This document shows, piece by piece, positions 4 to 55,228 of a stretch of DNA of 64,000 nt. The stretch's first letter is position 1, and the number at the start of each line of letters is the position of its first letter. The notes below the pieces were generated by a model. That model worked only from the letters and a program-made list of their open reading frames with translations. It had not been told where the DNA came from and ran no database searches. The DNA is from Pristiophorus japonicus. Lineage: Eukaryota. The translations under genes were made by a program, and so were the position numbers. The DNA lies in assembly GCF_044704955.1 (NCBI RefSeq), contig NC_091980.1:130324001-130388000 (forward strand). The letters run 5' to 3'.

Positions 4-5863
<5,860 letters not shown>

Positions 5864-18549: not shown

Positions 18550-19999
18550 TCACCTCAACCGTGTTCTCCCTGTGGCCGAGGAGCTCCGTCCGGAGTCACA
18601 GTGCGTATTTCGTCCCCTACGGGTAACAACGGACATGATCTTTGCAGCACGCCAATTGCAGGAAAAATGCAGGGAGCAGCGCATTTATACATGGCATTTT
18701 TCGATCTTATAAAGGCCTTTGAGACTGTCGACCGTGAGGGTTTATGGAGCGTCCTCCCTCCATTTTGGATACCCCCAAAAGTTTACCAACATCCTTCGCC
18801 TGCTCCACGTCGACATGCGGGGTCAAACAGGGCTGCTTCATCGCTCCAACGCTTTTCTCAATCTTCCTCGCTGCCAACTCCACCTTACTGTCAACAAGCT
18901 TCCTGCTGGAGTGGAACTAAACTACAGAATCAGTGGGAAGCAGTTTAACCTATGCCCTCTCCAGACCAGGTCCAAGACCACCCAAACCTCTGTCGTTGAA
19001 CTGCAGTATGCGGACGACGCCTGCGTCTGCGCACATTCTAAGGCTGAACTCCTGGATTTAGTCGATGTAGTCACTGAGGCATATGAAATCATGGGCCTTG
19101 CACTTAACATCCATAAGGGAAAGTGCCTCCATCAGCCTGTCTTCGCCGCACAGCACGGCCCCCCAGACATCAAGATTCACTGCGTGGCTCTCGACAATGT
19201 GGACCACTTCCTATACCGTGGGTGCCTCCTGTCAACAAAGGCAGACATCGATGCGGAGATTCAATATCGCCTCCAGTGCGCCAGTGCAGCCTTCGGCTGC
19301 CTGAGGAAAGGAGTGTTCGAAGACCAGGCCCTCAAACCTACCACCAAGCTCCCGCTCTACAGGACTATAGTAATACACACCCTACTGTATGGATCAGAGG
19401 CATGGACGACTTGCAGAAGGCACATCTAGTTGCTGGAGATATATCACCAAAGATGCCTCCCTAAGATCCTGTAAATTCCCTGGGAGGACAGATGCACCAA
19501 CATCAGTGTCCTCACGCAGGCTAACATCCCCAGCATTGAAGCACTAACCACATGTGATCAGCTTTGCTGGGCAGGCCACTTAGTCCACATGCCAGACATG
19601 AGACTCTCTAAGCAACTGCTCTATGCGGAACTCCTTTATGGCAAACGAGCCAAAGTTAAGCAGCGGAAACGTTACAAGGACACCCTCAAAACCTCTCTGA
19701 TGAAGTGCGACAGCACCACTGATGCCTGGGAGACCCTGGCCGAAGACCATCCTAGTTGGAAAAAGTGTATCCGGGAGGGCGTTGAGCTCTTCGAATCTCA
19801 ACGCTGCGAGCATGAAGAGGTCAGGCAGTGGAAGGAAGGTGTGGTAAATCAGTGACACCCACCCCCTTCCCCCGACGAATATCTGTCCCATCTGTGACAG
19901 GGTCTGTGGCTTTCATGTTGGACTGTTCAGCCGCCAACGAACTCACTTTAGGAGTGAAAGCAAGTCTTCCTCGATGCTGAGTGACTGCCTATGATGATG
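18550..19999 (+). mobile_element. 5'-truncated degraded RTE-clade LINE
   Basis: AFFDLIKAFETVDREGLW, LQYADD, RLSKQLLYAEL..GKR..QRKRYKDTLK, C-terminal C2H2-like motif, (ATG)n tail. Confidence 0.85.
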
Positions 20000-21182: not shown

Positions 21183-22137
21183 AGGTGTTTGAGATTGACA
21201 AAATGTTACCTTTGCACTTCTACAAAGTTTTTACTTTGGAAAAATAAAATATTAAGATGGCTTCTCAAGTGCGTCAGAATTACCACCAGGACTGTGAGGA
21301 TGCTGTCAACAAGCAGATCAACATGGAGCTTTCTTTCTCCTATGTTTATCTCTCTATGGTGAGTTTTGTGTTTTTTGCCACTTTCCAATGGAGACTATGT
21401 AATGTGAATTTATGAAATCCTGTGCTGGACACAGCTCACCTCTTGCTCTGTTTCTGTCCACCCCGTCCTGAATCTATGCTGTGAATTCACTTTTAAAGCT
21501 ATAATATGATACAATTTATCTTTATCTTTATTTGTTAACAAATTCTCTCTGTTCCTTGTATCATCTGATTATCTTGATTCTTTCTTTTTCCTGGAATCTT
21601 GAGCTTGATTAAGTTTATTTGGAATACATTCTGCACACAATGCAAGGAGTTCAGAATTAGTATCCTCATTCTAAATCACTGTATGGATTGTCCTTACCTT
21701 GCTGGTTCAATGGGTGGTGTCATAAAAATAAATCTAGGCCATTTAGGAGGGAAGTCAGGAAGTATTCTTTCCTGCCAGTGTGGTGAAAATCTGAAACACT
21801 TTCTTTCCCAGCCATCCCTCACCTCCACAGGGGGAGGATGGGAGGAAAGTGTTACAAATGTTTCTGCTTCCCTCCTGTTCCTAGTGTTTCTAACCTCCTT
21901 AATTTTAAGTACCAGATTGTATCCTTTCTTTCCTCTAACTTTTAGCACAAATAAAGCAAAAAGTTCATCACTTGTCTACAATGGACTCTTCCTTAACCCC
22001 TGTGATCTTCACCAAGCACCTCAAATTCTGAGGGGTTTTCATAACACTTTTTTTCTGTGGTCTCTGCTTCTCCGCTACTGTGCCAAATTAATGCTGCTTG
22101 TGGTAGTTTTAGTTCCTTGACATGATTGTAGCCAGTA

Positions 22138-25100
22138 TGTTAGCATGAATGTTTTCTCAGAAGAATCACTCAACACTCAGTTGGTTCCAATGCCAATGCG
22201 GCCTTTATTTTGGCATGCGGGGAGGAAGCCTCAGAACTGGATCCAGGCACTTCTCTCCGACGAACAAAGAAACTCATTGATATTTATGTTTTACAATAGT
22301 TCTTTACAGTTACTCAGCCCACTTCGGCTGGTCACAATCCAATCATAACGATTTTCGATTACATATAGGTTTCTTTAACCCAATAGAATTCCCCATATAC
22401 CTCAGGGGCTGTATGTTCGGTTTGTCAGCTCGGGCTGATTAATGATCTCGTTGTGAGGCAGGTTCTCCCATTATCTCTGTTCCTCGTGGCTCGGCTGTGT
22501 GAATTCACTGATTATACCAGTGTACTATAATGGTTCATTTATAATTATCTTGTATCCAAGGCATTCCTGGTAGTGGGCCTCACTAGGTCATTGCTCGGTC
22601 AGCCCCAGTTCATTACTTGACTAATTGAGTACCCATCATGCCTGGGCAGCCATTTTATGTGTGGCCACTTTAAACTTGAGTTTAGATATATTCAGCAGGT
22701 GCCTAATGCCGACAACAATTCCCCCCCCCCTCCCCCTTAACTGACCGTCCTACTTTTAGATTTTGTGCACGGCCTGGTACTCCCTGCCTCAATGTGCTGG
22801 CGAGTCATGTGGTTTCAGGAGTCCCGGTTGCTTAAATCAAATTAACAAAGGCCAAATCCTCCTGCCCCTTTATTAGACAGGCTTGTTTAGTATTTGGGGA
22901 CCGGTCATGGGTCCCTCTTCGTCGTGCTTGGTGCCTGCATGCCTGGCAGGCCATTCTGCCCCATGTTAATTCTAAGATCAATTGTATCCCGACCAGTATG
23001 TGAAATTATTCGAATCCAAGGATGGATGTTCACATTTATTCCCCACTCCCAGACCTTTCTCCACCAACTCTGACTTTGTAAGTCTACTTCGATATCATCT
23101 TTCAGTACTTTGATTTTAGTTTGCAGTTAGTGGTAGAGCTTTACGATTGACCCACCCTGAGCCTCACTTCTCGTAATACTTCGGTTAGATGTGGGATCGG
23201 GACCTGCTCTGGCTCGTCATAATCCTGCAAACGATCGTGGAGCTGATCGGTTACATCAATAACTTCAGGCTTCCGGTGCCTAACCTGGGTGATATGCGCT
23301 TGCCCGATTGTGACAGGTCGTAGCGGCGCAAAGCAAATGTTCGGCTGTGGTATCGGGCACTGCAGGTCATTATACCGGTATGAACGCTCTGTGGTAGAGA
23401 CGCAGTATCTTCCCTTCCCTCTGTAACCTACCCTCGCGAAGTGCCTGTGTGCGGGCACTATTTCTAGTACACACCCATCGGTTCGGTTAAACCCGCACTC
23501 GTCTAGCTCATCTTGGCCTACCGGGTGAGGGCTTACTGCGATCTCCCCCTTTGCTTGCATTCTGTTAGGGAGATCCTGGTTTCTCCTCATCTCAGTCCCA
23601 AATGGCCGACCCCTTACCCTGAGACTGTGACTCCTGGTTCTAGACTCCCCAGCCCGGAGGGGAAACAGCCTCCCAGTATCTAAGCTGAATTATATATGTC
23701 GTATGTCTTTTCGACGAACGGCGGATGTGCTGGTCAGATAGTAACGTATGGAGACATTTTTCCGTATTACTCCGATATTCTCTAGTTGGTACAGGGGGAA
23801 CGGCCCTGAGTCCGGCGTGGCGATAGGATCATCAGGACTATCCCTATCCCAGTATTGCTACCCATCTGGCAATCTGGAATTGCTGGGTGTACTCTGGTCA
23901 GTCCCTTCAGAGTACAATTATCCTTTGTCCCCCTCTGCTTAGCCAACTGAGCTAAATGTGAACTGTCTATCCAATCGGGTACTTCCCCGCGTTGGATCTG
24001 GTTGAGATTGTGGCGGATCTGTCCCACCATCCACAGACCATAAGCGTGACAGAGTTGCCCCAGTCTTTGCTTTCCTGTATCTTCTTTTTCTCTATCAATG
24101 AGGTGATTGATGGTTTTGGCGTGAGCTTCCAGGACTCAGATGCCATCCAACTGGATTTTGGCACCCTCCTTTCCTAGGTTGTACATTGTACATTTTCTTT
24201 GACTCTTCTGTATAGTATTCCGGCATCTGTATGCCTGAAATATTGATCAGGACAGACACAATTTCATGTTTAACATTCTCATACAATAATTCCCCTTTGT
24301 TGTACATTACAATCCCATTTTCTGATCCCTTAGTAGTTATGGGACAAGGCAGTTCCTCGGGCAATGTAGTGGTTCTTATGGGGCGGAGTGGCTGAGAAGC
24401 ATACATACAATGATATTGCAGCTGACCCCACCTCCTCGTAGTACCCACACAGCCCCACTCTCTTTTTGCAGATGCCTGATTTCTGGGACTGTCCCGGAGG
24501 TGTGCAAATTATGCCGAAAGTACATTCATTGGGCCCTTTGACATCCCTCCGTTTAATGCAGCTGCTCCTTATACCCGTGGAGCACTGTACACATACCCGG
24601 TTCTTATTAGGATTCACTTGTAACCATGCATTAAAATAAGTCCTGTCCTTGCTCCAGTCCTTGGCTGCTGGGATGCACATTCCATCCGTTAAATTAAACG
24701 ACTCCATAGTTCATGTAGTTTATTTCCTGAGTGCGCTGCAATCTGTTGGTATCATCCAGTGTTTGCGTGGGTCTTGAGGTTCCCAGTATCATGAGTCCCC
24801 AGAGTCGAAGTCACCACTGTGGTCCCATCTTGGTGAGTGTTTTATCTGAAAATTTTAAACCGATAGCCTGGTTGTCACCAGGTGTTAGGTTCTGGTCTAC
24901 TTGTGTCGTTGTCACTCTGTGGAATCGGAGGTAAGGATTAGGTTAACCATATTCTTTATAGTCGTACCATCTCTATCACTTCATGTCCCTGTCTGGGCTG
25001 CTGTCGGTTTTGCGTATGAGCCTGCTGTGCTCGAGCCTGCACGATGACCCATCTAAATATTATCCAAACTCCAATCAACATCAATGCCACCATTATTCCT

Positions 25101-28100
25101 CCAAACATCGCTGTCTGCTTTACCGTTGGGTTGGGTTTGTGGACTACACCTACCCACCGTGGGGTACATTGGCTCTATTGCCATAGGTGATGGTGCTATG
25201 GCTGTGCACTGCACTATCCATCTAGTCCTGTTTTTAAAACATCTCTTCCAGCCTGTTTATCTTAGCATTTAACTCTTGACCAGCTAGTTCTGTTTTATTT
25301 TAATTCTGAATATTCCACCATTTCCTCTGTCAGGTGAGTCTTCTTTATTTTATTAAGAAATCCAAATTAATAATGTCCAGTATAAAACAGCTGTCAATGG
25401 AAAGGGTTAACTGCTTTACAGGTTTGTAAGAAAGCCTGATGTCATTACGTGACTTCATGTAATCATCCGAAAAAAAATTTTTTTCAAGTCTTTGTGCCTT
25501 AAACTTGCTTAGAAATTAGGAATCTGTTAAACAGCATAAATCATTAGTAACGTGGTCATCATAAAAAATCTTCTCATTGGGAAAGACAGCATTTTAGATT
25601 AAACTCCAATTTTTTCTTAACTTCTAATTCAAGTACTTGCCAAATAATTTTTTTAAATTGATTTAAGACGAGACCACACATTTTTAATAGCTATTTTGTT
25701 TACTGAAATTCATTTTTTTATATTTTTTATTTCTCTCAGCACAAAATGTAAACATCTGTGCCAGTTCCATTTTCTATAAGAATTTAAAATTTCAGTAAGA
25801 TTCTCTAATTCCCAGTTTTTTTTTCTTTCTGTGCTGAGTTCGCATAGCTTGGGTCTTTTCTCCTCGTTCTCTTCAAAACCCTCCTGCTTGTTTAGACTGT
25901 TCGGGACTTTTCTTGATAAACACTGTCCATTTTGGAAATCTTTTCAAAGTGCATTGAAACTTTCTCATAATTTAAAATCTTTATCGATGTAGAGTGTCTT
26001 TTACCTCTTCCAGTTTTTTCTTTTTCTAATTAAACCAATATCTTTTTCACAGCAAACATCAACCAGTATTTAGTAAGTTTAGTCTTTTTCCATCACAAAC
26101 ATTTTTTTTTTAGCACTTATTTAGCACGTTACATCATTTTTTTTTTCAGATCTCCTTTCTTCAAATTTAGGTTTTGTATTCTACACGGAGGGCTCGTGAC
26201 TCCACAAATTTGTTAATTTAAAATCATTTGTTTACTTTCAAAGTGTCGTCTTTATCTTTTTCTTTTCTCCATGACTAGAATGGAGTCCAGCAATTAGGTT
26301 TCGAGGGCTGCTTTTTGTGATCTCAAAATGCTCCAATTTCAAAGTCGTTAAAATGTCTCTTCTAAACTGCTAAAGCTTGCTGTTTTCAACATTTTTCAAA
26401 AGTCCCTTTTACACCTTTGCAGATAGTTCGCCACTCGCCCAGGAGTTTGACCTGATCCCTGAAGGTATTTCTAGATTGTTTCCAAACCTTTTAATTTTAT
26501 CTCATTTTTTCCTTTAAGAGATCAGATTTAATAATTTTTTTTTTTTGAATCCACCTCAGTATTTTGCTGTGCCTTCTCTGAATATCTCAAAATCCTAATG
26601 TAAATCTTTATTTAAAACCTTTTTTGAGCTAGAATTTTTTTTTTTAAAAAGGCATTCTTTATCTCATTCCTAGACTAAATTTATGTCTTTCAACCCAATG
26701 TAATCAATCATTGCATGTTTTCTTTTGACAAGTAAGTGAGCGTGTCAAATAAATTATTTTTTTTAAACCACCGGGACTATGTATTTTTTATCTTTTGCTC
26801 AACAAACCTATCCTTTGTACATTTCCTAGCTCTGTAACTTATCATCCAAATAAATCCACACCTGCGTTTCTAACTTAAAATGTCTTAAAACTTCCCACAT
26901 ACAGGATAACACTACAAAGGGTTTTAAAAAAAAAAACTTTCACTCTGTTTAGAAAAGTGGGTGGAGCTAAAATAAACAGACACTTGCATTCCTCTTCCAA
27001 CCAGGCTTTTGGAAACATGAAAACATAAAAAAATTCATTCGGCAGTCAAGAAATCACAAGGACTCAACAACATACATTCACAAGTCTCTCCATTCAACAA
27101 GCTTAATTTTTTTTTTGGCCAGCTCTATTCTTGGATCCATACTTCACTTAAGATTAAAAAAAAATAAAAAAAAACCTGATAGTGATTATTTCTTACATGT
27201 TGATTTACTTCCTGTTTGTTTTACGTGGGCTCGCAGTATCAAAACTACAGCCTTTTCATTTTTGTCTTTCTTTTCCTTCTCCCACCATTCCGCTGGTCTG
27301 CTGGCAGGTCCTGAGGATCCCACCCTACTCGAATCATTTTCTCGATTTTGTTTTTCCGCCAGGTGGTGGGTAAGGGACCCTTCTGGTCCCCACTCGGTTA
27401 TTTGTTTTATTGGCCATACCTGGGTAGGACTAGAACCATTAGGAATCTACTCTCGGAGGTCCGCTTTCTACCTAGCGTAACTTGTAGTAGACCGTCTCCT
27501 GGCTACTCTCAGGTCACAAGTTCTGCTGTTGCACAAACTTATTCAATTCTTAAAACGCGTTTAAGCAATTCCCGCAGTGCTCTACGTATCCTTAACGACT
27601 ACCTACCACCGCTCTGCCCGTTGGTCAGACCCTGTTCACAGGTTTGGATTCCGTTAGCTGCTGTACACCGCTTGGTTCTACTCCGGGGTATATTTCAAAT
27701 TACACTAATGGGTCCGGAAGATGTCTTTCAGTATCATGATCCCACAGTCCAAGTGTGTTCCCGGCACCTACTTAGTTCCTGGCTGCCACGTGGGACTAAA
27801 GTCCTCTTAATTCAGGCTCAGGCTAGGTGTTTGAGATATTGGACTGTCTCCTCATGTTTATCTTCCAGCATCCACCTTCCGCACCAGTTATAAAATTTTG
27901 TTTAAGGTATACACACCCGGTTTCTCCAAGAGCGCCACTATTAGCGTGAATGTGTTCTCCCAAGAATCACAACACTGAGTCGGTTCCAACGCCAATGTGG
28001 CCTTTATTTTGCATGTTGGGAGGAAGCCTCACGACTGGATCCAGGCATTTCTCTCCGACGAATAAAGAAACTCATCGATATTTATATGTTTTACAATAGT

Positions 28101-28517
28101 GCTTTACAGTTAGCCCACTTTGGCTGGTCACAATCCAATCATAACGATTATAGATTACATATAGGTTTCTTTAACCCAATAGAATTCCCCATATACCTCA
28201 GGGGCTGTATGTTTGGTTTTGTCAGCTTGGGCTGATTAATGACCTCGTTATGTGAGGCAGGATCTCTCCTTATCTCTGTTCCTCGTGGCTCGGCTGTGTG
28301 AAGTCACTGATTATACCAGTGTACTATAATGGTTTGTTATAATTATCTTGTTTCCAAGGCATTCCTGGTAGTGGGCCTCACTACGTCATTGCTCGGTCAG
28401 CCCCAGTTCATTACTTGACTAATTGAGTACCCATCATGCCTGGGCAGCCATTTTATGTGTGGCCACTTTAAGCATATGAGTTTGGATATATTCAGCAGGT
28501 CCCTAATGCCTACAACA
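22138..28517 (-). mobile_element. Non-autonomous ERV-like LTR element (env remnant, no recognisable gag-pol) in intron 1 of A2
   Basis: LTRs 22138-22717 and 27939-28517; 5-bp TSD CAGTA; G-rich PPT at about 22721-22738; PBS-like TGGCGCTC... at about 27920-27937. Empty site GCCAGTAAAACTC at about 62677-62689 in the paralogous intron. Confidence 0.9.
22900..24828 (-). pseudogene. env: Decayed class I fusion (env) gene, foamy-Env/F-protein-like
   Basis: Cys-rich fragments, then GQIRHNLNQIQRGEVPDWIDS, PLYQLENIGVI, ECGFNRTDGCVLE..GKGRYCVST, a heptad LTEVLREVRLRV, a Trp-rich WWRKVWEWG and a hydrophobic TM-like segment. Frameshifted and interrupted by a CR1 fragment (about 23580-23682). Confidence 0.65.
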
Positions 28518-28919
28518 CAGTAAAACTCAGCTAGCTTTTCTCTTTTTTTTTTTTTATATACAATATGAATTCTGCACTGTGACTCGATCTCTAGTTTAGG
28601 AAGTTGCTTTGACTGCCAATACTGCCTCTCAATTAGCCTATACAAAATGTATTTGGGTTAATAAAGTAGTATTATTAGAGCATGCTACTGGTGACCAGGG
28701 TATAAATTTTGTGGCAACTCCTTCACTAATTTCCAGAGCCAAAATGAATATAGGGTGCCAAGATTAAGATTCCAGTTTTAAGCATGTTCAATCAAAGCTG
28801 AATTGGTGATTATGGAGTGATGCAGCACAGGAGGCCATTCAGCCCATTGTGCCTTGCTGAATGTTGGGTGGAGCGAAACAACTGTTTCCATAGCCTGCAA
28901 ATTTTTCTAAATCACGCAA

Positions 28920-31125: not shown

Positions 31126-34100
31126 TGTAAAGTCCTGTCCCCTCAGTACAGCTTCTCACAAGGCAAGTAGTGAAGTCAAGGTCACTCTGGACCTGCACCT
31201 TTATTTCACAGCTCTGGAATGCTGCACTTGTGTGAGACCTGTCCTTGTATAACCTGTCTCTCGCAAGTGCACCCCTGGTGGTCAGGTATGCTGGTGCTTA
31301 CAGGTCATATCTTAGTCATGTATAGTATGTTAGGATACAGTTATATATAATGTAAGATACATGACATCACCCTCCCCCAAGGTCTTATTTTCTTTATAGC
31401 TTCAGTCTCTCGTGTGGAGCGTTTGAGTTGTGGTTCAGTTGTTTGCCTTGGTGTCTGTATCTTTGGGTGTGGTTGCTGGTATCTCGCCAGGGCTGTCTGT
31501 TTAAATTGGTGTTGTTGTTGTTGACTCGCCTGGGCTGTCTGTTGCAATGGTGCTTTCCTCAGGTTGTTCCCTCTCTGTCCACCAGGTGTGATGCGACTTC
31601 CACATTATAGTCTGCCTCTGGTTCTGCAGTGTTGTTGGTAAATCTGCTTTTTACTTGGTCTACATGCCTCTGGCAGGTTTTGCCATTGTCCACTTGTACT
31701 ACCAGTAGCCTGTTTCCTTCCTTGCCCATTACTGTCCCTGCAAGCCATTTGGGACCCCTGCCATAGTTTAGTACAATCACTTTGTCCCCTATCTCATTCC
31801 ATCTCCCCCTCGAATTTCTGTCATGGTACTCGGTCAGCTTACAGCGCTTTGCCTCAATGATTTCGTGGATGTCTGGGAGGATTAATGAGAGCCTTGTTTT
31901 TAAAGTCAATTTCATCAACAGTTGCACGGGGGGATCCCAGTCAGTGAGTGCGGACGAGATCTGTATGCCAGCAGCAGTCGTCGCAACAGGCTACCCTGCA
32001 GCGTGGGACCTTGGATATTAAGCATGCCTTGTTTAATGATTTGCATTGCTCTCTCCGCCTGGCCTTTGGAGGCTGGCTTGAACGGTGCTGTCTTGACGTG
32101 ATTTATGCCGTGGTCAATTATAAAAGCTTGGAATTCTGCGCTGGTGAAGCACGGACCATTGTCACTGACCAATATGTCAGGGATTCCGTGCATTGCAAAC
32201 ATGGTTGCGAGGCTCTCCAGTGGTGGAGGTTGTGATCGAGTTTAAAATGGTGCATTCAATCCACTTTGAAAATGCATCTACAACTACGAGGAACATTTTG
32301 CCCATGAATGGGCCCACATAGTCTACGTACACCCGTGACCATGGTTTGGTAGGCCAGGGGCTCAGGGGAGCCTCCCTGGAGGCATTGCTGAGTTGGGAAC
32401 AAATGGTGCACCTTCGGATGCAGAGCTCCAAGTCTGCATCAATACCAGCCCACCAGACGTGGGATCTGGCTGTGGCCTTCATAACGATCCCTGGGTGCTC
32501 GCGGTGGAGCTCCCGGACAAATGCCTCTCTGCCTCGCAGAGGCATGACTACTCGGCTGCCTCACATCAGGCAGTCTGCTTGTAGTGATAGCTCATGCATG
32601 CGCCTGTGAAAGGGTTTTAATTCCTCGGGGCAGGCATTGCGAGCCTCTGCCCAGTCACCGGTGAGGACATATCTTTTTACTAAGGATAATGTGGGGTCGC
32701 TGTTCGTCTAGGCTCTGATTTGGAAAGCTGTCATGGGCGAACCTGTGGACTCAAAGGCATTGATTGCCTTGACAATCTCTCAGTCCTGTTCGTGAGACCC
32801 TTCTGTGGTCACCAGGGGTAGCCTGCTGAGCACGTCGGCACAGTTGTCTGTGCCTTATGGTATAGTCGTAGGACGCCAGTATGAGTGGCCACTGTTGAAT
32901 TCGTGCTGAGGCTTTGGCGTTTATTGCCTTGCTCTTGGATAGGAGGGACGTGAGGGGCTTGTGGTCGGTTCCTAACGCGAACTTGGCCCCGAAAAGGTAT
33001 TGGTCTATCTTTTTGACACCGTACATGCATGCGAGCACCTCCTTCTCTACCATTCCGTACCCGTGCTCCACCTGCAAAAGTGACCTGGAGACATAAGCTA
33101 TGGGTTGTAATTTGCCTGCACTATTGACCTGTTGCAAAACGCACCCAACCCCAATAGCTGATGCATCGCATGTGAGAACTAACTTTTTACTTGCGTCAGA
33201 GAAAGTCAAAACACTGTTGGAACACAGAAGGTTGTGTGCCTTATTGAAGGCAAGTTCCTGGGCATCCCCCCAAAACTTATCGCACCCCTTCCTGAATAGC
33301 ATGTGGAGAGGCTCCAGCAGCATGCTCAAGTTCTGCATAAAGTTCCCAAAATAATTGAGTAGCCCGAGAAAGGCGTGCAGTTCTGAGACATTCCGGGGCC
33401 TGGGTGCCAGGCGAATTGCTTCTGTATTGGACTCTGTTGGGCGGATTCCAGCAGCGGCCTAATCCTTCTGCCCAAAAATTCAACCTCGGGTGAGAAACAG
33501 GCACTTTGATTTCTTGACTCGTCTGCCTACCCGATCCAACCGCTTTAGTACTTCCTCCAAATTACGGAGATGGGAGTCTGTGTCCTGCCAGTGATAAGTA
33601 TGTCTTGAAATACAACCGTCCTTGGGATGGACTTGAGCAGACTCTCCCTATTGCGTTGGAATATGGCAGCTGCTGACCTGCCAAATGGGAATCGATTGTA
33701 CATGAAAAGGCCTCTGTGTTGATGGTGGTGAGTAGCTTGGATTCCTCGGTCAATTCTTGTCATACGCAGATGAGGTCTAGTTTTGAGAAGTTTACCTCCA
33801 GCCAATGTGGCAAATAAGTCCTCTGCTCTGTGCAGCAGGTACTGGTCCTGTTGGGAGACTCTGTTCATGGTCGACTCGTAGTCCCCACAGATTCGTATGG
33901 ATCCATCAGGCTTCATGACTGGGACAATGGGACTTGCCCAGTCGCTAAATTCCACAGGTGATATAATGCCTTCCTGCAGAAGCCTGTCGAGTTCATGTTC
34001 CATCTTTTCCCTCATCACATAGGGTACAGTTCTGGCCTTGTGATGGACAGGTCTAGCATCCTGTGTAATGTAGATTTTGACTTTGGCCCCTTTGAAAGTG

Positions 34101-35765
34101 CCCACACCTGGCTGAAAGAGATATTCAAATCACTTTATAACTGTTGAGCAGGAGGCCCGTCCCTCTAATGATATGGCATGGACATCATCCCATTTCCAGT
34201 TTAGTTTTGCCAGCCAGCTTCTCCCCAACATTGCAGGGGAGTCTCCGGGGACAATCCACAGGGGAAGTTTGTTCACTGTCTCTTTGTGTGTGACAGAGCA
34301 TGCTGCTGCCAAGGACTGGTATGATTTCTTTGGTATAGGTCCTTAGTTTGGTGTCAAACCTTGAGTTTTGGTCTGTCTCTTTTTTTTAAGCGGCCACAGT
34401 TGTTGAAATTGTTGAGCACACGTGAGATTGATTCGCTCCTGTATCCAGCTCCATGTTGACAGGTATTCTGTTGAGTAGGACCCTCATCATTATAGGAGGC
34501 ATCCTGTTGTAGGAGCAGCGGCCATTGATCGTGTTGACCCGCTGCACATCGGTGTCCCAGGTACTGTCCCTCCTTCTGGTCCGCTTTCCGACCCATACGA
34601 TTCGTATATCAGCCAAGCTGGGTTTTTTTTGCACATGCTGGCCAAATGCCCTATATATTCACAGTTCCTGCAAACAGCCTGCTGAAATCGACAACCCCTT
34701 GACGAGTGCCCACCCCCTCACCTCCAGCACAGACCGCTTCCATTGTTCCCAAAGAATGAGCTGTCTGGCTGATCTCTTGAACTTCTCCTCAGTTTGTAGT
34801 TGATTGCTTGCATTGTGGGTTGATGAGGTGTGAATGGCTGTTCCTGTGGCCCTTGATGGTTTCTGGCGCCGCTGCCTGCTGTCGAGAGCCTGTTCTCCCG
34901 GTTTTGTCTGTGTGGGGGTAGCAGCTTGTTTACTGCTGTGACCACCACCTTCTGATATTTTGTTAGTTGTTGTACCTGCATTTTAAATCAACCTCGTTTC
35001 TTGCCCCTACCAAGAATGTCTGCAACCAGTGCTGCTGCCTCTAAGGTCAGGTTCTTGGTCTCTGAGCTTTCAGAGTATGCCTGCATGGCCTCTTCCTTCA
35101 ATGAAAGTCTCTCAGCATTTCTCTCCTCAGTTCATCTGAGAACTCACATAAATGAGCCAACCTCTGAAGTTCCACCATGAAGTCGGGTATGCTCTGGCCC
35201 ACATAGCATCTGTAGTTGTAGAACCTGTGTCCGGCCATGTGTAGGCTGCTCGCTGGCTTCAGGTGGTCTCTTACCAGTGTGCTCAATTCTTCAAATGACT
35301 TGCTGCTTTCACGGGTGCTAGCAGATCCTTCATAAAAGCGTATGTTTTCGAGCCACAGCTGGTCGAGATGGGCTCTTGTCTGCTTTGTCATCTCCTAACC
35401 AGTCTTTGGTTACAAGGCATTGCTGGACCCTTTCTGTAAATTCCTCCCAATTGTCTCCAGCATTGTACTTTTCATCTGATCTGTTTGCCATTCTGTGGAT
35501 TCTGTAATCCTGTAACTTATCACCACTAAAGTCCTGTCCCCTCAGTACAGACTCACACAAGGCATGTTGTGAAGTCCAGGTCACTCTGGACCTGGACCTT
35601 TATTTCACAGCTCTGGAATGCTGCACTTGCCTGAGACCTGTCCTTGTGTACCTGTCTCTTGCAAGTGCACCCCTGGTGCTAAGGTATGCTGGTGGTTACA
35701 GGTCATATCTTATTATTCATGTATAGCATGTTAGGATAGTTATATATAATGTAAGATACATGACA
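31126..35765 (-). mobile_element. Degraded Ty3/Gypsy element, duplicate of 666-5154, in intron 2 of A2
   Basis: LTRs 31126-31366 and about 35527-35765; flanks CATTA/CATAA; RT ICGDY..VVFQD; RNase H LTCDAS; integrase remnants. Confidence 0.93.
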
Positions 35766-47154: not shown

Positions 47155-47832
47155 TGTCGAAATCTCGACCTCAGAAAAGAATGACTCCGACACTTACAGC
47201 TCCGATGGAAGTTTCCCTTTTAATTTACTTGCTCGCAAGGGGTAGGTTTCACTCAGTCAAGGGCTAAATGAAACCTCCGCAATGGTACAGCTTCACAAGA
47301 TATTTATACAGTAAAACCCAAGTTCTGGCCTCTCCCTGTGTATTGCTCTGTCTCACAGTCAGTGAATACAGATAAAGAGTTAATTACTATATCCTGGTCC
47401 TGAAATGGTGTCAAGATATTTCCTTTTGTCAGGGTTATCAGAAAGCCAAACGGCCATTACTCCATGAGTCATAGGTAATGGGCTATCACCTGTCTTGTAT
47501 TGTATCAGGATTATCCAATTTCCTGGTCAGTTTACCTGTTTGCTTCAAATGGATGAGGTAAAGGAAAGAGATAATGGCTAGAAGATAAGGGTGGGGTGAC
47601 ATGGAACTCCTGTAGTGTAGACAATAGGAGAGCACCATGGGGGGTTACTTGTCTCAGCATGACTTGTCTCCTAGCTGTCTGATAACCATCAGCCATCTAA
47701 CAGCAGGTTTAGCTGTTCATAATAAGCTGGCTGCTAAAATGCAGAAAGTTCTGGAAGGGCCAGGACTCCATTTTAATCAAAAGGCACACAAATACCGTAT
47801 GGTATCAGCTTAGATAAAAATACATTTCCACA
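47155..47832 (-). repeat. ERV 3' LTR
   Basis: TG...CA with terminal inverted repeat; TATAAATA and ATTAAA on the - strand; PPT adjacent at about 47835-47848. Confidence 0.96.
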
Positions 47833-48453
47833 TTCCCCCATTTTGTCCTTCACAAGGACAACTCAATCCATTCTGATCTTGTACAGTCTCTCCATTTCCA
47901 TTTCTTTTAGTTTCATTACTCACTAGGCATATTATACCCTCAGGATTTCCTATTCTGGGACTAATGCTTAGGAAGGGAGGCTGATGGTTATTATCATAAT
48001 TGGGCTGGTACCATCCCTGGAAGGCTGTAAGTTTATACCCTGCCGACCTCCATTCTGTTTGCTCCTTTGTTTCTGGCCCCTTAGTTAGTTTTGTCCTCTT
48101 TTGCACTGTCAACCATTCGACCATTTCTGATTCGTTAAAGGGGACAGATCTCAGGGGAATACCCCCCTGGAGTGGACAGGTACATGGGAACATATCCAAC
48201 AACTCGACAAGTTTCTTTCTTGAGCATACCTATGACTCAGTGCCATAAATACGTTTACGTGCAATTCCCTTCGGTGGTGGGTCTGTACCCCTGGTGTAAT
48301 CAATAATGCGAAGTAAAACCCTGTCAAGCCCAGCACCATCAGTCCCCATAGTCCATACAGTTCTTTATTCAGTCTTCCTTTTTCTGTTCCTCTGATTCCT
48401 TCGTCCCTTCCTCCTGGTCGGGTGCCCGTTTGCAATGGGATGCGTGGATCCAT
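47810..48453 (-). pseudogene. env: Truncated gamma-type env (leader plus SU N-terminus; TM deleted)
   Basis: ATG overlaps the pol WIHASHCK codons; hydrophobic LYGLWGLMVLGLTGFYFALLI; NLSSCWIC motif; frameshift in a G6 run (48162-48167); runs into the PPT/LTR with no TM subunit. Confidence 0.8.
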
Positions 48454-51400
48454 GTTGGTCTTTCCTTTTCCTTGATTGCAGTATTGGTCGCCAGCAGGAC
48501 CTGGTATGATCCTTCGAATCTTGGCTGTAGACTGCTTTTCCTTTTAAAAATCTTGATGTAAACGAATTCCCCTGGCTCCAGGTTATGACACTTCCCTTCC
48601 GCTGGCTTGACTTGGGCTTCCTTTACCTGTGAATGAAAGCTGGAAATACATTTGGTTAGTGCAATACAATAATTCAACATATTTTCCTCCATTTTGTGGA
48701 TGTCCATCTGTTTTGCAGTAAATGGTGCTGTAAAAGGTAGTCGTTGGGGACGTCCCATAACTATCTCATGTGGTGACAAGCCTGTTGTTCTGTTGGTTGC
48801 AGATCGCATTACCATCAAAGCTAAGGGCAGCAGTTCTGTCCATTTCAGTCCAGTGTCATTGCATAGTTTTGCCAGCTTATTTTTAAGCATTCCATTATAT
48901 CTTTCAACAAGTCCAGCTGATTGTGGATGATAACTGCAATGAAAACGTTGATTAATCTGTAAAGCTTTACACATTTCTCTTATAACAGTTCCCGTGAAAT
49001 GTGACCCGTTATCACTCGAAAGCTTAGCAGGAATTCCGAAGCGCGGTACAATTTCTTTTAACAAACATTTAGCAACAGTAGTGGCATCGGCCTTTTTACA
49101 TGGAAAGGCTTCAATCCATCTAGAGAACACATCTACAATAACTAATACATACTTGAATCCCATACACATAGGTAATTCAATAAAATCCATTTGTAAATGT
49201 ACAAAAGGCCCGACTGGATTTGGGTGGGAGGCAGATTCTACTTTTTCCGTCTTACCCGGATTCATTGTCTGACAGGTAACACAATTTTCACAGATTTGTT
49301 TTGCAATTGCCGAAATACCTGGTGCATACCAAGTTGCCAAAATATAATCTGCCAATCCCCCTTTGCCTGCATGTGTGAATGTATGAACACATCGGGCAAT
49401 CCATGGAAGTAAGGATCTAGGGGCCACCACGCGGCCGTCATGGTGAACCCATATTCCTTCTGGATTTTTATAACATTGATCCTTCGTCCAGGTCACCACC
49501 TCCTCCGTACTGGCCTGTGTCTGAAAGGCCAGCACGTCATTAATAGTGGGTGGCGGGTCTGAGCAATTATTTTTCCTTAGTGGGAACAATGACACCTGCA
49601 TCCCCCCTTTCGACAGAGCTGCTGACTTAGCTGCATTATCAGCTCTGGCATTCCCAAGTGCCACCTCATTCGACTGGCCTGTATGTGCTTGGCATTTGAT
49701 AATGGCAAGTTTTAAGGGGCATTGAATGGCTCGCAGGAGATTTTCCACTTGTTCTGCATTTTTGATAGGGGTTCCTGAAGAAGTCAGGTACCCGCGAATC
49801 TTCCAAATTTGTCCATAGTCATGTGATACCCCAAAAGCATACCTGGAGTCAGTGTAGATATTAACTGTGTGTCCTTCAGCCAGAATACAGGCTCGAGTTA
49901 ACGCAAACAATTCGGCTTGTTGGGCTGAAAAGGAGTCTGGAAGAGAGGCTGTTTCGACAACATTAAACTGAGTTACAATTGCATAAGCCGCTCTAGGTTG
50001 GCCCCTATCATTTCGTAAGGCTGATCCGTCAACATAGTACACTAGCTCAGGGTTACACATTGGTACATCTGTTAGATTGATACATGGTTTAGTCACTAAT
50101 TCGGTTACCATTTCACATGAATGGGGTTCGCCGTCGTCTTCCGTGGGGAGTAGAGTGGCTGGATTTAAGGTAGTACATCTTTTGATGACAAGGTTCGGAT
50201 TTGATAACAGTTCGACCTCGTATTTGGTGGTTCTTGCGGAGGTTAGGTGTTGGGTGGCACATTTAATAAGTAAAATCTCGACAGAGTGTGGGATATATAA
50301 AATGGTCTGATGATTTAGAGTTATTGTCTGAGCCTGTTGCATAGCATAATAAGCTGCTGCCAACGAAGGAAGACATCCTGGTAGTCCGCGTGCCACTGGG
50401 TCTAGTTGGGTACTGAAATACGCTACCGGTCGCTGCCTGTCCCCATGTAACTGAGTCAAAACAGATTGTGCAAAACCCGACTTGTGATGCACAAATAAGT
50501 TGAATAGCTTAGTGTAATCTGGTAATCCCAAGGCGGGTGCTGAAGTGAGGGACTGTTTAAGGTTCTGAAAAGCATTCCGGGATACCTCATTCCAAATCAA
50601 CTTCTCTGGTAGTGCGGGCATGGACATGTCTAACAGTGGTCTAACAATCTCGGAATAACTCATAACCCATTGCCGGCAGTATCCTGTCATGCCGAGGAGG
50701 TGTTTCATTTCTCTCTTGGTTACTGGTAGTGGGGCAGAGCAGATTGCTTTTACTCGGTCTTGTGTCAATTGTCTCGTATCCCTGACCAATTCGTGCCCTA
50801 GATACCGAACCTTTTCTGAGACAAATTGTAACTTTGCCTTTGACACCTTGTGTCCTTTCGAGGCCAGAGCTTTTAATAACACAAGGGAGTCCGTTTCGCA
50901 GGCCAATTTGGAGGGTGAGGCGAGCAATAAGTCGTCAACATACTGCACAAGTGTAGAACCTGCTGGTAAAATTACATCTTCCAGATCCCTCTTTAGGCAC
51001 TGTGAGAATATGGTAGGGCTCTCGGTAAATCCCTGCGGGAGTCTTGTCCACGTATATTGGCGTCCTTTATACGTGAAGGCAAACAGGAATTGAGACTCTG
51101 GGTGAATAGTTATTGAGAAAAATGCTGAACACAGATCAACTACTGTGTAATACGTTGATGATGCCGGAATACTGGCAAGTATAATTGCCGGGTTGGGTAC
51201 CACTGGATAAGTTGGGAATACCGAATGATTCACGGCTCGTAGGTCTTGGACAAATCTCCATTTGTCACTATTGGGCTTCTGCACCGGAAAGATCGGTGTG
51301 TTACATGGACTTCTAGTTGGAACGATTACTCCCTGGGCCAGCAGGGACTTAATGACTGGCTCAATACCTTGTTCTGCGGCTGGGGACAAGGGGTATTGGG

Positions 51401-52511
51401 GCTTCTTGGGGAGCGGGGCGGTTGAATTGATTGCTACCTTATAGGGTTGTGCGGTAAGCATCCTCCCTACTTCATTAGCGTGTGTAGACCATAGTTGTTC
51501 TGGAACTTTAGCAAGAAGCTCTGCTGTGCTTTGTCGTACTGGGAAGCTAGTGGCTGAGAGCATCCTTTCTTCTAAGACAGCATCGAAGTATACTTTCCCA
51601 TTCAACTGGACAGAATAGCCTCCCCCCTTTTCATGTTGCCCCAAAGTTCCATTACGTGTGTGCCATTCCTCTTGTACTGGGGATCCTTGCATTCTTTTAA
51701 CCATCTGTCCTAAATCCTGGGGTTTATGTGTGCCTGCAACCGCAAGGGTGCAGTGTGGAACGCTCCCTTTAACCCTAAACAAGCTCTGACTGTGGGAGGA
51801 TAATTCAACCCCTGCCGCTATCCCTTCGGGTCCGATAAAGATTTTTTCGATCATCAATTGATGTTTCTGGTGCAGGAATGGTTGATAAAAGATTTGTGCT
51901 GTAGCGTCTGATCCCGTTTTGTCACAATATGCTGTGCAGTGTAATGTTTCGTACCACTTGCCCAAGGTTTGAGATTTGAGGTAGTCTGTGATTAACCTTG
52001 TTACACACCAATATGAACCAACCAAATAGGATAGGGTTTTGCTTAGTGTGGGGTCCAAATTTTCCCAGGCATACAATATGGGAGTTGTGGGTTGAAGTAG
52101 TGGATATGCGCCACATTTATCTATGGGGACTCGAACCTCCAGACCAGCTGGGGAACAGAGGATCGTGGCATTCATTTTACATAACAGGTCACGTCCACAC
52201 AGATTCACTGGAACCTCTTTAGACAGTAGGAATGAATGACTATCTTCGTAATCCTCTATTTGTACATTGATAGGGTTGGAGAAAAACATTTGCTGTGCGT
52301 GTCCAGATAGTCCAATCACTGAGGTTTGATTAGTGGAAGTGGGAATTCCCCTCGTATCCTCCCTTGAAAGGACCGAATAGGTGGCACCAGTATCCACTAG
52401 GAATGGGACATCCTTTCCTTGTATTCGTATTTTTACTTCAGGTTCTCCTATGGCATTTAACGAAACGACAGGCAGCTGTTTGTTCGCAGCACTCGGGTCT
52501 GGGATTGGGCG
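48369..52511 (-). CDS. pol: Retroviral pro-pol: protease, 2H-phosphoesterase-like insert, RT, RNase H, integrase; uninterrupted
   Basis: FLVDTGA; LPQGFTESP and YVDD; YVDGS/SAQQAEL/YTDS; HHCC, MDF..D..SDNG..VER and WIHASHCK. Open from the codon after the gag TGA (1380 codons). Confidence 0.97.
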   Translation of the reverse strand, partial: RPIPDPSAANKQLPVVSLNAIGEPEVKIRIQGKDVPFLVDTGATYSVLSREDTRGIPTSTNQTSVIGLSGHAQQMFFSNPINVQIEDYEDSHSFLLSKEVPVNLCGRDLLCKMNATILCSPAGLEVRVPIDKCGAYPLLQPTTPILYAWENLDPTLSKTLSYLVGSYWCVTRLITDYLKSQTLGKWYETLHCTAYCDKTGSDATAQIFYQPFLHQKHQLMIEKIFIGPEGIAAGVELSSHSQSLFRVKGSVPHCTLAVAGTHKPQDLGQMVKRMQGSPVQEEWHTRNGTLGQHEKGGGYSVQLNGKVYFDAVLEERMLSATSFPVRQSTAELLAKVPEQLWSTHANEVGRMLTAQPYKVAINSTAPLPKKPQYPLSPAAEQGIEPVIKSLLAQGVIVPTRSPCNTPIFPVQKPNSDKWRFVQDLRAVNHSVFPTYPVVPNPAIILASIPASSTYYTVVDLCSAFFSITIHPESQFLFAFTYKGRQYTWTRLPQGFTESPTIFSQCLKRDLEDVILPAGSTLVQYVDDLLLASPSKLACETDSLVLLKALASKGHKVSKAKLQFVSEKVRYLGHELVRDTRQLTQDRVKAICSAPLPVTKREMKHLLGMTGYCRQWVMSYSEIVRPLLDMSMPALPEKLIWNEVSRNAFQNLKQSLTSAPALGLPDYTKLFNLFVHHKSGFAQSVLTQLHGDRQRPVAYFSTQLDPVARGLPGCLPSLAAAYYAMQQAQTITLNHQTILYIPHSVEILLIKCATQHLTSARTTKYEVELLSNPNLVIKRCTTLNPATLLPTEDDGEPHSCEMVTELVTKPCINLTDVPMCNPELVYYVDGSALRNDRGQPRAAYAIVTQFNVVETASLPDSFSAQQAELFALTRACILAEGHTVNIYTDSRYAFGVSHDYGQIWKIRGYLTSSGTPIKNAEQVENLLRAIQCPLKLAIIKCQAHTGQSNEVALGNARADNAAKSAALSKGGMQVSLFPLRKNNCSDPPPTINDVLAFQTQASTEEVVTWTKDQCYKNPEGIWVHHDGRVVAPRSLLPWIARCVHTFTHAGKGGLADYILATWYAPGISAIAKQICENCVTCQTMNPGKTEKVESASHPNPVGPFVHLQMDFIELPMCMGFKYVLVIVDVFSRWIEAFPCKKADATTVAKCLLKEIVPRFGIPAKLSSDNGSHFTGTVIREMCKALQINQRFHCSYHPQSAGLVERYNGMLKNKLAKLCNDTGLKWTELLPLALMVMRSATNRTTGLSPHEIVMGRPQRLPFTAPFTAKQMDIHKMEENMLNYCIALTKCISSFHSQVKEAQVKPAEGKCHNLEPGEFVYIKIFKRKSSLQPRFEGSYQVLLATNTAIKEKERPTWIHASHCKRAPDQEEGTKESEEQKKED

Positions 52512-54252
52512 TCATTGATCATTATACGGGCAATTTGGTGGTTGGCCGAATTGCTTTTGATTCTGTGATCCAAATGGATCTTGCACAGAGAAATTAGTCT
52601 GAGGTCTAGCATGTACCTGGACTTGGGTCGCATACTGGTTGGGTTCTGAAGGGGGAGGGTGTGCTCTATTACCTGCCTGTTGAGTCCAATCATGATTTGG
52701 TTGTTGCTGTTTTGCCCGGCAAGTTCTAGCCCAGTGTCCAATCTGTCCACAATTGTGACAGGTATAATATTGTTCCTGCCCTGCACCTCCTCTCCCTCTT
52801 CCCCTGTAATATCCTCCTCTGGCTCGCCCTCTTCCTCTACCCTGGGGTGGGGCGTAGGACGGTGTCACCGGGGTGGGTGTCATTGGAGCTGCTTGTCCTA
52901 CAAACATGGTGACCTTGCTTTTAGATTCTCTATTTCGCTCTTGTATGTCCTTTAACATAGATACAACCTTGGATAGCGATTCCTGTCGCCATCCGAGACA
53001 AACTAGTTTAAAGGGATCTCTGAGTTCGGGCCGTAGCCCGTTTACCACGGCGCTGATCATAGGAGCCTCTACCTCCTCCATTTTCATGCCTGAACATTGG
53101 TTCATGATCTCTCGCACTCTTTCTACATAATCCTCAACATCCTCCTCCTTTCTTTGTGTAGTTTCCATAATTTTGGACCAATTCGTTTTCCTCGGGAACA
53201 CCGAATGTAAGGCTTCCCAACATCTTCCCCAGAACCCCTCTCCTGGCTTCGTGCTGGGATCTGCATCCGGAGCCTCTCGATGGGTTTTAAAATCTTTGAA
53301 TTTTATCTCAAGTTCGGCAAATTTTGTATCCTTTAACCATGCTTTCAGTAAGATTTGACCATCTAATATACTGGGTTCGTGGCACAAGATGATTACTTTT
53401 AACTGGTCTATGGCCTTTTCAATATTGGTTTTGGGGTCTGCCAATCCTTCCACAATTATTCTTAATTCACTTGGTGACCATGGTCGATAAATAGGGACCG
53501 GAGCCCCCCCCGAGAGTGGACTGGGAAAAAGTCTTACTGGGTATACTGATGATGATGGCTCCAGGGCACTGGGCTCTGGTCCACGGGTATGACTTCGTGT
53601 GCCCCCTGCAGGGCCGTCACGGTATTGATTCCCTTGTGACTGACTTATATTTCCTGCAGCCTCACCTGTATTGTTGGGAGCGGGTGTTACCCCGTTTCCC
53701 TGTACTCCGGCCCGAGGATCATCTCCTCCTTGGCCTGGAGCACCCCCCGGGGATGGAACATACGGCGGTGGTCGATGGCTGTAGGGAGTCCAATCCTCAT
53801 CCCAGTCCTCATCCTCATCCTTATCCCAACCCTCAGGAGCCCTGGGTGAGTGTGCCTTTGTCTCTTTAACAACCATAACGGATGGGTGTTTGTTATGTCG
53901 AGGGCGATTCACCTGCTCTACCCGTTCATCCCCCTGCTTTCTCCGTCTAGTACACTGCTTGCTAACTCTTAGGCTCTTCTCGTGTCGTTCCTCAGCTTCC
54001 CTTTTCCAATCTCCAAACGCTGACCAATTCACTTTTTTTTTCTCTTCTATCTGGGTCTCTGTCTATAAGGCATTCTTCTAGACAGGTTATTCTCTCTAAA
54101 TTGAATGAACCATCGGGTGGAAATGGCCTGTTTTCACCCTTAGTCCATTTTACCCATTCTCTTAGGTGGTCAATTGAAGACTGACCACAATTCTGGAGCA
54201 TAAAATGGGCTGGGGTCCCTTTTGGTGGTGGTTCACTTGCTCCAGCCCCCAT
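52512..54252 (-). CDS. gag: Retroviral gag, one frameshift in an A9 run (54033-54041)
   Basis: Myristoylation MGAGAS, matrix FPPDGSF, late domain PPPY, capsid YRPWSPSEL, MHR-like QRKEEDVEDYVERV, RGG tract, single CCHC knuckle CHNCGQIGHWARTC. Confidence 0.93.
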
Positions 54253-55205: not shown

Positions 55206-55223
55206 ATCTCGGTGGAACCTCCA
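55206..55223 (-). promoter_or_regulatory. Primer-binding site complementary to tRNA-Gln(CUG)
   Basis: The + strand reads ATCTCGGTGGAACCTCCA, the 3' 18 nt of vertebrate tRNA-Gln(CUG) including CCA as I recall it. Confidence 0.88.
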
Positions 55224-55228
55224 ATAAC

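What the first reader, a model, noticed from the sequence alone, without database searches (positions are those of the whole stretch)
22138..28517. Env-only LTR element whose envelope resembles foamy-virus Env or paramyxo-type F rather than gamma-type Env
Seen: LTRs, 5-bp TSD, PBS and PPT but no gag/pol motifs. The env relic has the order helix + VPDWIDS, LMIP..YQLENIG, C..CG....GC..E...F..V...G.G.Y.VST, heptad, Trp-rich segment, TM, with no ISD or CX6CC. From memory this order parallels the spumavirus TM subunit, and lokiretrovirus Envs are described as F-like. Inference: a non-autonomous derivative of a foamy-like or loki-like retrovirus, possibly an undescribed lineage mobilised by a helper.
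Basis: partly seen in the sequence, partly recalled or inferred. Interest (0 to 1): 0.7.

Follow-up and report, generated by a model that had tools for sequence, protein, structure and literature searches.

The report
Envelope-only satellite of shark retrovirus
This is a broken copy of a widespread, likely shark, retroviral element that kept only its envelope gene, which is predicted to fold like the fusion proteins of RSV and measles; it was likely copied by complete helper retroviruses in the same genome, which are neither foamy viruses nor lokiretroviruses.

Summary
The anatomy is real: minus-strand element, 580-bp LTRs (94% alike), CAGTA target duplication, polypurine tract, broken env without ISD or CX6CC. 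Corrections: the primer site is truncated in this copy (the family uses tRNA-Ser), a gag stub survives, and env lacks its furin-site/fusion-peptide stretch and holds a 121-bp host-repeat insert. At least 150 env-bearing relatives exist. A natural relative's Env models (pLDDT 73.5) as pneumo-/paramyxovirus F (Z 10-11.6), then foamy Env (Z 7.8). Complete gag-pol-env proviruses with the same LTR type, primer site and 81-94% identical env DNA are in the genome, some with near-identical LTRs. Their Pol excludes foamy viruses (two trees) and has the retroviral LPQG motif, not the lokiretroviral PFG; it sits among unnamed fish retroviruses near the base of class I, close to snakehead retrovirus by RT identity. 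An A-rich spacer replacing gag/pol persists across old and young defective waves while env tracks the contemporary helper, pointing to recombination. So F-like Env and helper dependence hold; foamy/loki ancestry does not. The scan noted similar shark F-Env proviruses on other DNA before. Interest 0.5.

The parts
22133..22137 (.). Target-site duplication CAGTA (left)
22138..22717 (-). 3' LTR, TGTTG...TAACA
22719..22738 (-). Polypurine tract
22835..23579 (-). env relic, C-terminal part: Cys-rich beta region, heptad 2, Trp-rich segment, TM, tail (frameshifts and stops)
23580..23700 (-). 121-bp insert of an abundant host repeat (likely a CR1-type LINE end; label recalled) inside env; shared with neighbouring segmental duplicates
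23701..24181 (-). env relic, middle: heptad 1 remainder, VPDWIDS, YQLENIG (frameshift near 23830)
24181..24182 (-). Junction of an about 240-bp deletion removing furin site, fusion peptide and start of heptad 1
24182..24929 (-). env relic, N-terminal (surface/F2-like) part, broken by frameshifts
25047..25107 (-). Short remnant of the pol-env intergenic region of the complete provirus
25110..27210 (-). A-rich non-coding spacer in place of gag and pol; absent from 16 of 16 complete proviruses tested, shared with gag-less relatives and in part with other Ser-primed families
27213..27429 (-). gag 5' stub (about first 80 codons, frameshifted)
27430..27932 (-). 5' leader, about 90% identical to the leader of young complete proviruses
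27933..27938 (-). Remnant of the tRNA-Ser primer-binding site (rest deleted in this copy)
27939..28517 (-). 5' LTR
28518..28522 (.). Target-site duplication CAGTA (right)

Best explanation
The element is a decayed copy of an env-only family derived from a complete gag-pol-env retrovirus present in the same genome; its Env is predicted to be an F-type class I fusion protein, and the family was likely copied in trans by the complete proviruses. Mechanism (inferred): the LTR drives a genomic RNA that keeps the leader, tRNA-Ser primer site and polypurine tract; helper Gag packages it, helper Pol reverse-transcribes and integrates it with a 5-bp duplication; co-packaging lets the defective backbone (A-rich spacer in place of gag/pol) swap env, and sometimes pol, with the helper of its time. 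Env of the intact family would be cleaved at RxKR, expose a weakly hydrophobic fusion peptide and refold through heptads 1 and 2 like RSV/paramyxovirus F. The window copy itself is dead: primer site truncated, fusion peptide deleted, env frameshifted and interrupted, then duplicated with its flanks at least five times on the same contig.
For: Shown: family of 6.0-6.9 kb two-LTR elements, at least 150 env matches; 36 of 36 sampled env-only copies have at most 93 gag codons and no pol hit above 60% identity; complete gag-stop-pol-env proviruses share LTR type, Ser PBS and env, and two of them (L275, L277) carry the window subfamily's exact Ser(CGA) junction with LTR identity 97-98%; exact 5-bp TSD in 19 of 38 copies whose ends were called, 6-bp in 0 of 38. 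Fold: model pLDDT 73.5, pTM 0.55; Foldseek top hits RSV F and hPIV3 F, E about 1e-11; VIA-align Z 10.1-11.6 for nine pneumo-/paramyxovirus F chains, 7.7-7.8 for foamy Env. Mosaicism: young env-only and gag-less pol+env copies have env 96-99% identical to young complete proviruses but 92-95% to the older complete copy L276, whereas their leader is closer to L276 (96-97%) than to the young complete ones (93-95%), and their A-rich spacer is 92-94% identical to that of the old env-only wave. Pol: SFV excluded in both trees; Pol tree joins the family to class I at 100/97.
Against: No packaging, replication or fusion was observed; trans-mobilisation is inferred from sequence. The fold is a single-chain prediction with sizeable low-confidence stretches (residues 81-117, 403-427) and high rmsd to post-fusion F; a first model from 10 sequences failed (pLDDT 29). 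No Pfam or PDB sequence hit for Env. The deep placement is unstable: RT-only support for the class I link is 82/51 and SnRV moves between trees; no lokiretrovirus, fish foamy-like, WDSV or CmiERV sequence was in the trees. 19 of 38 TSD calls were not exact (many are mis-called ends). Origin of the A-rich spacer is unknown.
Confidence: 0.8

Rival explanations
1. Non-autonomous derivative of a lokiretrovirus.
For: F-like Env with RxKR site matches the lokiretroviral Env description (PMC7947760); lokiretroviruses have a known single-gene non-autonomous family, gag-only BHIKHARI (10.1101/2024.03.25.586437).
Against: RT motif LPQGF versus PFG in 24 of 24 Loki rows; Pol nests among retroviruses with class I at 100/97; no PF00523 hit whereas Loki-Str Env hits it at 2.2e-7; no Loki reported in the six chondrichthyan genomes listed in that paper.
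Confidence: 0.03
2. Derivative of a foamy or foamy-like virus.
For: Foamy Env structures rank 10-11 in the wide fold search (Z 7.7-7.8); motif order resembles the foamy TM subunit (recalled).
Against: RT 32-36% to SFVs versus 43% to SnRV; SFV excluded in both trees; Gag has two CCHC knuckles, pol follows gag in frame behind a stop, only about 140 bp between env and LTR; no Foamy_virus_ENV Pfam hit.
Confidence: 0.04
3. Env is actively selected in the satellite: the env-only elements supply Env (to env-defective helpers, or to the host as a receptor-blocking factor) rather than carrying it passively.
For: env kept in 36 of 36 sampled gag/pol-less copies over at least two waves; pooled pairwise dN/dS 0.44 among 16 old and 0.20 among 7 younger env-only copies.
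Against: Copies were picked through env searches and partly for long open frames, which biases both numbers; repeated import of env from the helper gives low dN/dS without selection in the satellite; env RNA or splice/export signals could explain retention; env-less derivatives were not searched for.
Confidence: 0.2
4. The env-only copies are independent post-insertion deletions of complete proviruses, never mobile in this form.
For: The window copy and its neighbours on the same contig were multiplied by segmental duplication (same TSD and flanks 93-99% identical).
Against: The same spacer, absent from 16 of 16 complete copies, occurs in dozens of copies with different TSDs on many contigs, some with 99-100% identical LTRs.
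Confidence: 0.02

Closest known systems
Snakehead retrovirus and SnRV-related ERVs (clade Huo of PMC6001957; CmiERV lineage I of elephant shark, PMC4422223)
   Same: Closest named RT (42.7% over 260 aa to P0166, whose RT matches the SnRV row of the Wang and Han supplement); a second family in this genome with 31% identical Env groups with SnRV in the RT tree (92/88).
   Different: The family itself never forms a supported clade with SnRV; the Pol tree puts it next to class I. Simple genome without room for 3' accessory genes; tRNA-Ser primer. SnRV Env was not compared.
Lokiretroviruses (PMC7947760)
   Same: Env of F type with RxKR cleavage, coiled coil and TM; gag-pol-env order.
   Different: RT motif and tree position; Env shows no sequence hit to PF00523; not reported from cartilaginous fish.
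Foamy virus Env (PMC11468914; PDB 8rm0, 8rm1)
   Same: Shared F-type core fold (Z 7.7-7.8).
   Different: Env about 700-760 aa without the large inserted receptor-binding domain; virus is not a spumavirus by Pol, Gag or genome layout.
Pneumo-/paramyxovirus F (RSV, hMPV, hPIV3, NDV)
   Same: Best structural matches, covering model residues 11-405 (Z 10-11.6).
   Different: 8-13% identity; extra N-terminal Cys-rich surface part; carried by a retrovirus.
recKoRV (defective koala retrovirus recombinants; seen only as search listing, and a passage in PMC11905727)
   Same: Defective provirus whose middle is replaced by foreign sequence and which is remobilised by a helper.
   Different: Here the whole env is kept and the backbone persists over several waves; spacer origin unknown.
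BHIKHARI of zebrafish (10.1101/2024.03.25.586437)
   Same: Single-gene non-autonomous ERV family.
   Different: Gag-only and lokiretroviral; this one is env-only.

Membership tests
Lokiretrovirus | RT in the Loki clade, sister to all retroviruses | tested here: not met
   Pol joins class I retroviruses at 100/97; LPQG motif versus PFG in 24 of 24 Loki rows. No Loki sequence was in the tree.
Lokiretrovirus | Env related to paramyxo-/pneumovirus F | tested here: met
   By predicted fold; not by sequence.
Lokiretrovirus | Integrase closest to CGIN1 | not tested
   No integrase tree with CGIN1; 'NYNRIN-like' database labels on hits are automatic names.
Spumaretrovirinae / foamy-like ERV | RT/Pol monophyly with foamy viruses | tested here: not met
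   (simian foamy viruses as anchors; fish foamy-like ERVs compared by eye only)
Spumaretrovirinae / foamy-like ERV | Gag without CCHC zinc knuckles; Pol made separately from Gag; accessory genes after env (features recalled) | tested here: not met
   Two CCHC knuckles, in-frame gag-TGA-pol, about 140 bp from env end to LTR in complete relatives
Spumaretrovirinae / foamy-like ERV | Env with F-type core fold | tested here: met
   Z 7.7-7.8 to 8rm0/8rm1, below the F proteins
Gamma-type Env | ISD and CX6CC in TM (10.1101/2021.11.23.469661) | tested here: not met
   Neither pattern in 3 of 3 proteins; a CXXC (CVQC/CFTC) occurs in the N-terminal part of 2 of 3 but has no CX6CC partner
SnRV-related ERVs (clade Huo) | RT clusters with snakehead retrovirus | tested here: inconclusive
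   Nearest named RT by identity but no supported clade in either tree
Class I ERV (ERV1) | Pol within gamma/epsilon clade; usually 4-bp TSD (PMC4299795) | tested here: inconclusive
   Sister to, not inside, the class I rows (RT-only 82/51); TSD is 5 bp
ERV4 (PMC4299795) | 5-bp TSD, no Gag zinc finger, no GPY/F motif | tested here: not met
   5-bp TSD yes; zinc knuckles and a GPY motif after integrase are present
Class I viral fusion protein, F subtype | Furin site, fusion peptide, HR1, Cys-rich beta domains, HR2, TM; F core fold | tested here: met
   RxKR at 240 and TM near 646-668 in natural copies; fold match. Fusion peptide only weakly hydrophobic; missing in the window copy.
Class I viral fusion protein, F subtype | Trimer formation and membrane fusion activity | not testable with these tools
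   No trimer model or assay was run
Helper-dependent (non-autonomous) ERV | Cis signals kept, gag/pol lost, independent insertions, autonomous partner with shared ends | tested here: met

The most novel reading that the evidence does not exclude
An unnamed shark-and-frog retrovirus lineage branching next to class I carries an F-type Env; with lokiretroviruses, foamy viruses and walleye epsilonretroviruses (BFVD hits) this would make the F fold the ancestral retroviral envelope, later replaced by gamma-type Env. In addition, this shark virus keeps a long-lived env-only satellite that refreshes env from its helper by recombination and may be selected to supply it.
Probability: 0.3. Interest if true: 0.75.

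Novelty: new variant of a known kind. Interest (0 to 1): 0.5.

Why it matters
Wang and Han (PMC7947760) left open whether the F-like Env is ancestral to retroviruses or a lokiretroviral acquisition. A well-preserved, recently active shark family whose Pol sits near class I but whose Env is F-like adds a missing branch that makes this testable, and gives a compact (about 700 aa) Env between RSV F and foamy Env. The env-only satellite is the reverse of the usual trend (ERVs tend to lose env) and offers a dated, multi-wave record of helper-satellite recombination. The window copy itself is only a dead relic.

Tried and rejected
Pfam on 11 window ORFs, 5 family Envs and 35 homologues: no fusion-protein family at cut-off; one weak Baculo_F hit (E 0.001) on a chimeric homologue. 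PDB sequence searches with Env, single or profile: nothing meaningful. First fold from 10 close sequences failed. ESM Atlas was unavailable. IMG/VR scan with Pol: no relative. My interim reading 'lokiretrovirus-like', based on dual RNase H and NYNRIN-like labels, was dropped after motif and tree tests. The second family (L142-L151; Env 31% identical, 1.3-kb LTR, 4-bp TSD, different PBS) was considered as helper and rejected. RNA structure in the A-rich spacer: 5-sequence consensus fold has an unfavourable covariation term (+4.24) and 2 of 82 pairs with double change, so no support; Rfam finds nothing in 22000-28700. RNA runs: no RNA holder was listed. One search queried a flank by mistake and only shows a host repeat.

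Full report
OBSERVATION. The element lies on the minus strand. Two LTRs at 22138-22717 and 27939-28517 align with 536 matches, 36 mismatches and 15 gap columns and are flanked by CAGTA on both sides. A purine tract precedes the 3' LTR. Three things were missed or overstated. The primer site is a five-base remnant followed by a deletion; the family site is the exact 18-nt complement of a host tRNA-Ser(CGA) gene found by pattern and confirmed by ARAGORN. A gag stub survives at 27429-27213. The env has lost about 240 bp at 24182/24181, the stretch holding the RxKR site, fusion peptide and start of heptad 1, and carries a 121-bp insert at 23580-23700 that hits 39 of 116 long loci as a host repeat.

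FAMILY. The LTR search gave 40 scored hits of 2765 candidates; an env piece filled the 150-hit limit. Exact LTR-primer junctions number 222 for the Ser(CGA) form and 311 for a second Ser form (anticodon label recalled; 30 of 30 sampled matched the element). Two-LTR copies are mostly 6.0-6.9 kb. In 36 of 36 env-only copies checked, gag stops by codon 93 and no pol piece above 60% identity is found. An exact 5-bp TSD was read in 19 of 38 copies whose ends the script called (22 with one mismatch allowed; 4-bp exact 5; 6-bp 0); many misses are wrongly called ends, and 4 of 42 loci gave no call. The window copy has duplicates nearby on the same contig with the same TSD and 93-99% identical flanks (L035-L038; L291 partly), so its local multiplication is segmental duplication. 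Its 6.3% LTR difference gives about 15 My at 2.2e-9 or about 150 My at the 2.2e-10 rate assumed in PMC4422223; the age is therefore open. Homologues are named from Mustelus, Heterodontus, Chiloscyllium, Scyliorhinus and Pristiophorus, and more distantly from frogs, hence a likely shark host.

ENVELOPE. Natural open frames of other copies give a protein of about 700-760 aa with RxKR at 240, two heptad regions, a Cys-rich middle, a Trp-rich segment and a TM near 646-668. No CX6CC or ISD pattern occurs in 3 of 3 tested. Sequence searches found no family. A profile search gave 57 relatives; an alignment of 48 rows yielded a model of residues 155-650 with pLDDT 73.5. Foldseek ranks RSV F and hPIV3 F first (E about 1e-11). 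In BFVD the hits are F-type glycoproteins of lispi-, baculo- and paramyxoviruses, with walleye epsilonretrovirus Envs at ranks 8 and 24 and feline foamy Env at 36. VIA-align over 48,161 chains gives Z 10.1-11.6 for nine pneumo-/paramyxovirus F chains (best rmsd 5.3 over 272 residues) and 7.7-7.8 for foamy Env, against 7.6 or less for unrelated helical rows. The fold call is good but rests on a prediction.

PARENT AND HELPER. Following the primer site led to longer relatives: gag-less pol+env copies of 8.8 kb with LTRs 99.7-100% identical (4 loci), and, through a gag search, complete gag-pol-env proviruses of about 9.4 kb. These fall into older groups (LTR identity 93-98%) and a young group (98-100%). 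Two older complete copies carry the window subfamily's own Ser(CGA) junction. The window element is collinear with them: LTR and leader, gag stub, then about 2.1 kb with no match, then a bit of pol-env intergenic DNA and env at 81-94%. Gag has two CCHC knuckles, pol follows in frame behind a TGA, and env ends about 140 bp before the LTR. A second family with 31% identical Env, an Ig-like N-terminal domain, 1.3-kb LTRs and 4-bp TSDs is a cousin, not the helper.

PLACEMENT. RT identity: 42.7% to P0166 (SnRV; matches the published row), 37-42% to gamma-like rows, 32-36% to foamy, 28-33% to gypsy. The RT tree (30 of the 58 rows, chosen to drop long branches and near-duplicates) leaves the family among unnamed fish and shark sequences, weakly joined to class I (82/51), with the second family beside SnRV (92/88) and foamy outside. 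The Pol tree (22 rows, 817 columns) joins it to class I at 100/97 as a sister group, with foamy plus ERV-L-like at 99/97 elsewhere and SnRV unresolved; RNase H and integrase are known to be swapped between lineages (PMC7947760), so this is provisional. All 24 Loki RT rows in that paper's supplement have PFG where this family has LPQG. I read three of four parts of the main text and parts 1, 67 and 68 plus three searches of the supplement; the six cartilaginous genomes found in its table carry no Loki mark. SnRV-related ERVs are known from elephant shark (PMC4422223, first of two parts read) and clade Huo spans all vertebrates (PMC6001957, passages).

MECHANISM. Shown: cis signals kept, gag and pol gone, many independent insertions, same-ended autonomous partners of matching age. 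Inferred: packaging by helper Gag, copying and integration by helper Pol. The segment comparison (54 copies; 2-20 missing per segment) adds a signature of co-packaging: the A-rich spacer is missing from 16 of 16 complete copies, is 100% identical between young env-only and young gag-less copies and 92-94% identical to the old wave, yet the env of young defective copies is 96-99% identical to young complete viruses, and their leader is nearer an older complete copy. The defective backbone thus likely outlived one helper wave and took env (and sometimes pol) from the next. Parts of the spacer recur at 71-91% in other Ser-primed families with unrelated LTRs; no RNA structure support was found. 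Pooled pairwise dN/dS over 310 env codons in 37 copies is 0.44 within old env-only, 0.20 within younger env-only and 0.26 within complete copies; sampling bias and env import make this weak evidence for selection in the satellite.

COMPARISON AND NOVELTY. It works like a helper-dependent defective retrovirus (recKoRV, search listing only; passage in PMC11905727) and mirrors gag-only BHIKHARI (passages). Its Env works, by prediction, like RSV/paramyxovirus F. It fails membership of lokiretroviruses, foamy viruses, ERV4 (PMC4299795, passages) and gamma-type Env (10.1101/2021.11.23.469661, first two of six parts; PMC9967133, passages, which notes that walleye virus Envs lack gamma hallmarks); SnRV-clade membership is inconclusive. 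Other papers seen as passages only: PMC12440569, PMC10435555, PMC12193657, PMC13524379, PMC12583693, PMC12690878. Nine searches found no paper on F-type Env in shark ERVs or an env-only shark family, within the limits given under Tried and rejected. Two earlier notes of this scan describe similar shark F-Env proviruses on other DNA; I saw them after reaching my own reading, and they are not independent support.

VERDICT. Observation largely right, parentage wrong. A dead copy of an env-only satellite of an unnamed, recently active shark retrovirus with an F-type envelope. New variant of a known kind; interest 0.5; 0.75 if the F-type Env proves ancestral.

Noticed in passing
window 47155-55528 (minus strand): A second, unrelated ERV with a 516-aa gag frame (52512-54062) and a 1380-aa pol frame (48369-52511) separated by one stop, flanked by 300-bp direct repeats that are 100% identical; Pol is closest to class I-like fish rows. 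There seems little room for env.
   Followed up: partly
L142-L151, L162-L171: A second young, abundant provirus family (146 of 146 scored RT hits at 97-100%) with F-type Env 31% identical to this one, an Ig-like N-terminal domain, 1.3-kb LTRs, 4-bp TSD and a primer site that looks like tRNA-Arg (recalled); RT groups with SnRV.
   Followed up: partly
L152:1051-3408 (minus): A 786-aa open Env-like frame, 42-45% identical to a bamboo-shark protein (P0027), with no LTR pair or pol seen in the 10-kb stretch; other copies of that Env group are full of stops. Possible co-opted env gene.
   Followed up: partly
L187, L219-L221: Young gag-less pol+env subfamily (about 33 RT hits at 99-100%); pol frames are often split at an A-run, which may be real slippage or an assembly artefact.
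   Followed up: partly
L222-L225, L227, L228, L235: Other tRNA-Ser-primed LTR families with unrelated LTRs share pieces of the A-rich spacer (71-91%) and carry partial pol; a mobile cis module is possible.
   Followed up: partly
G000:C4:130.3-130.83 Mb (L035-L039, L291): The window region is a segmental-duplication cluster carrying at least six copies of this one insertion.
   Followed up: partly
P0037, P0043, P0050, P0069: Frog homologues (Pelodytes, Mantella with 16 near-identical members, Xenopus tropicalis, Bombina) are full-length Env-like proteins with no Pfam family; likely the same undescribed Env type.
   Followed up: no
window 2599-4440, 32751-34129, 18713-19429, 59010-59603: Decayed gypsy-like pol fragments and LINE reverse-transcriptase fragments (labels by eye).
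   Followed up: no
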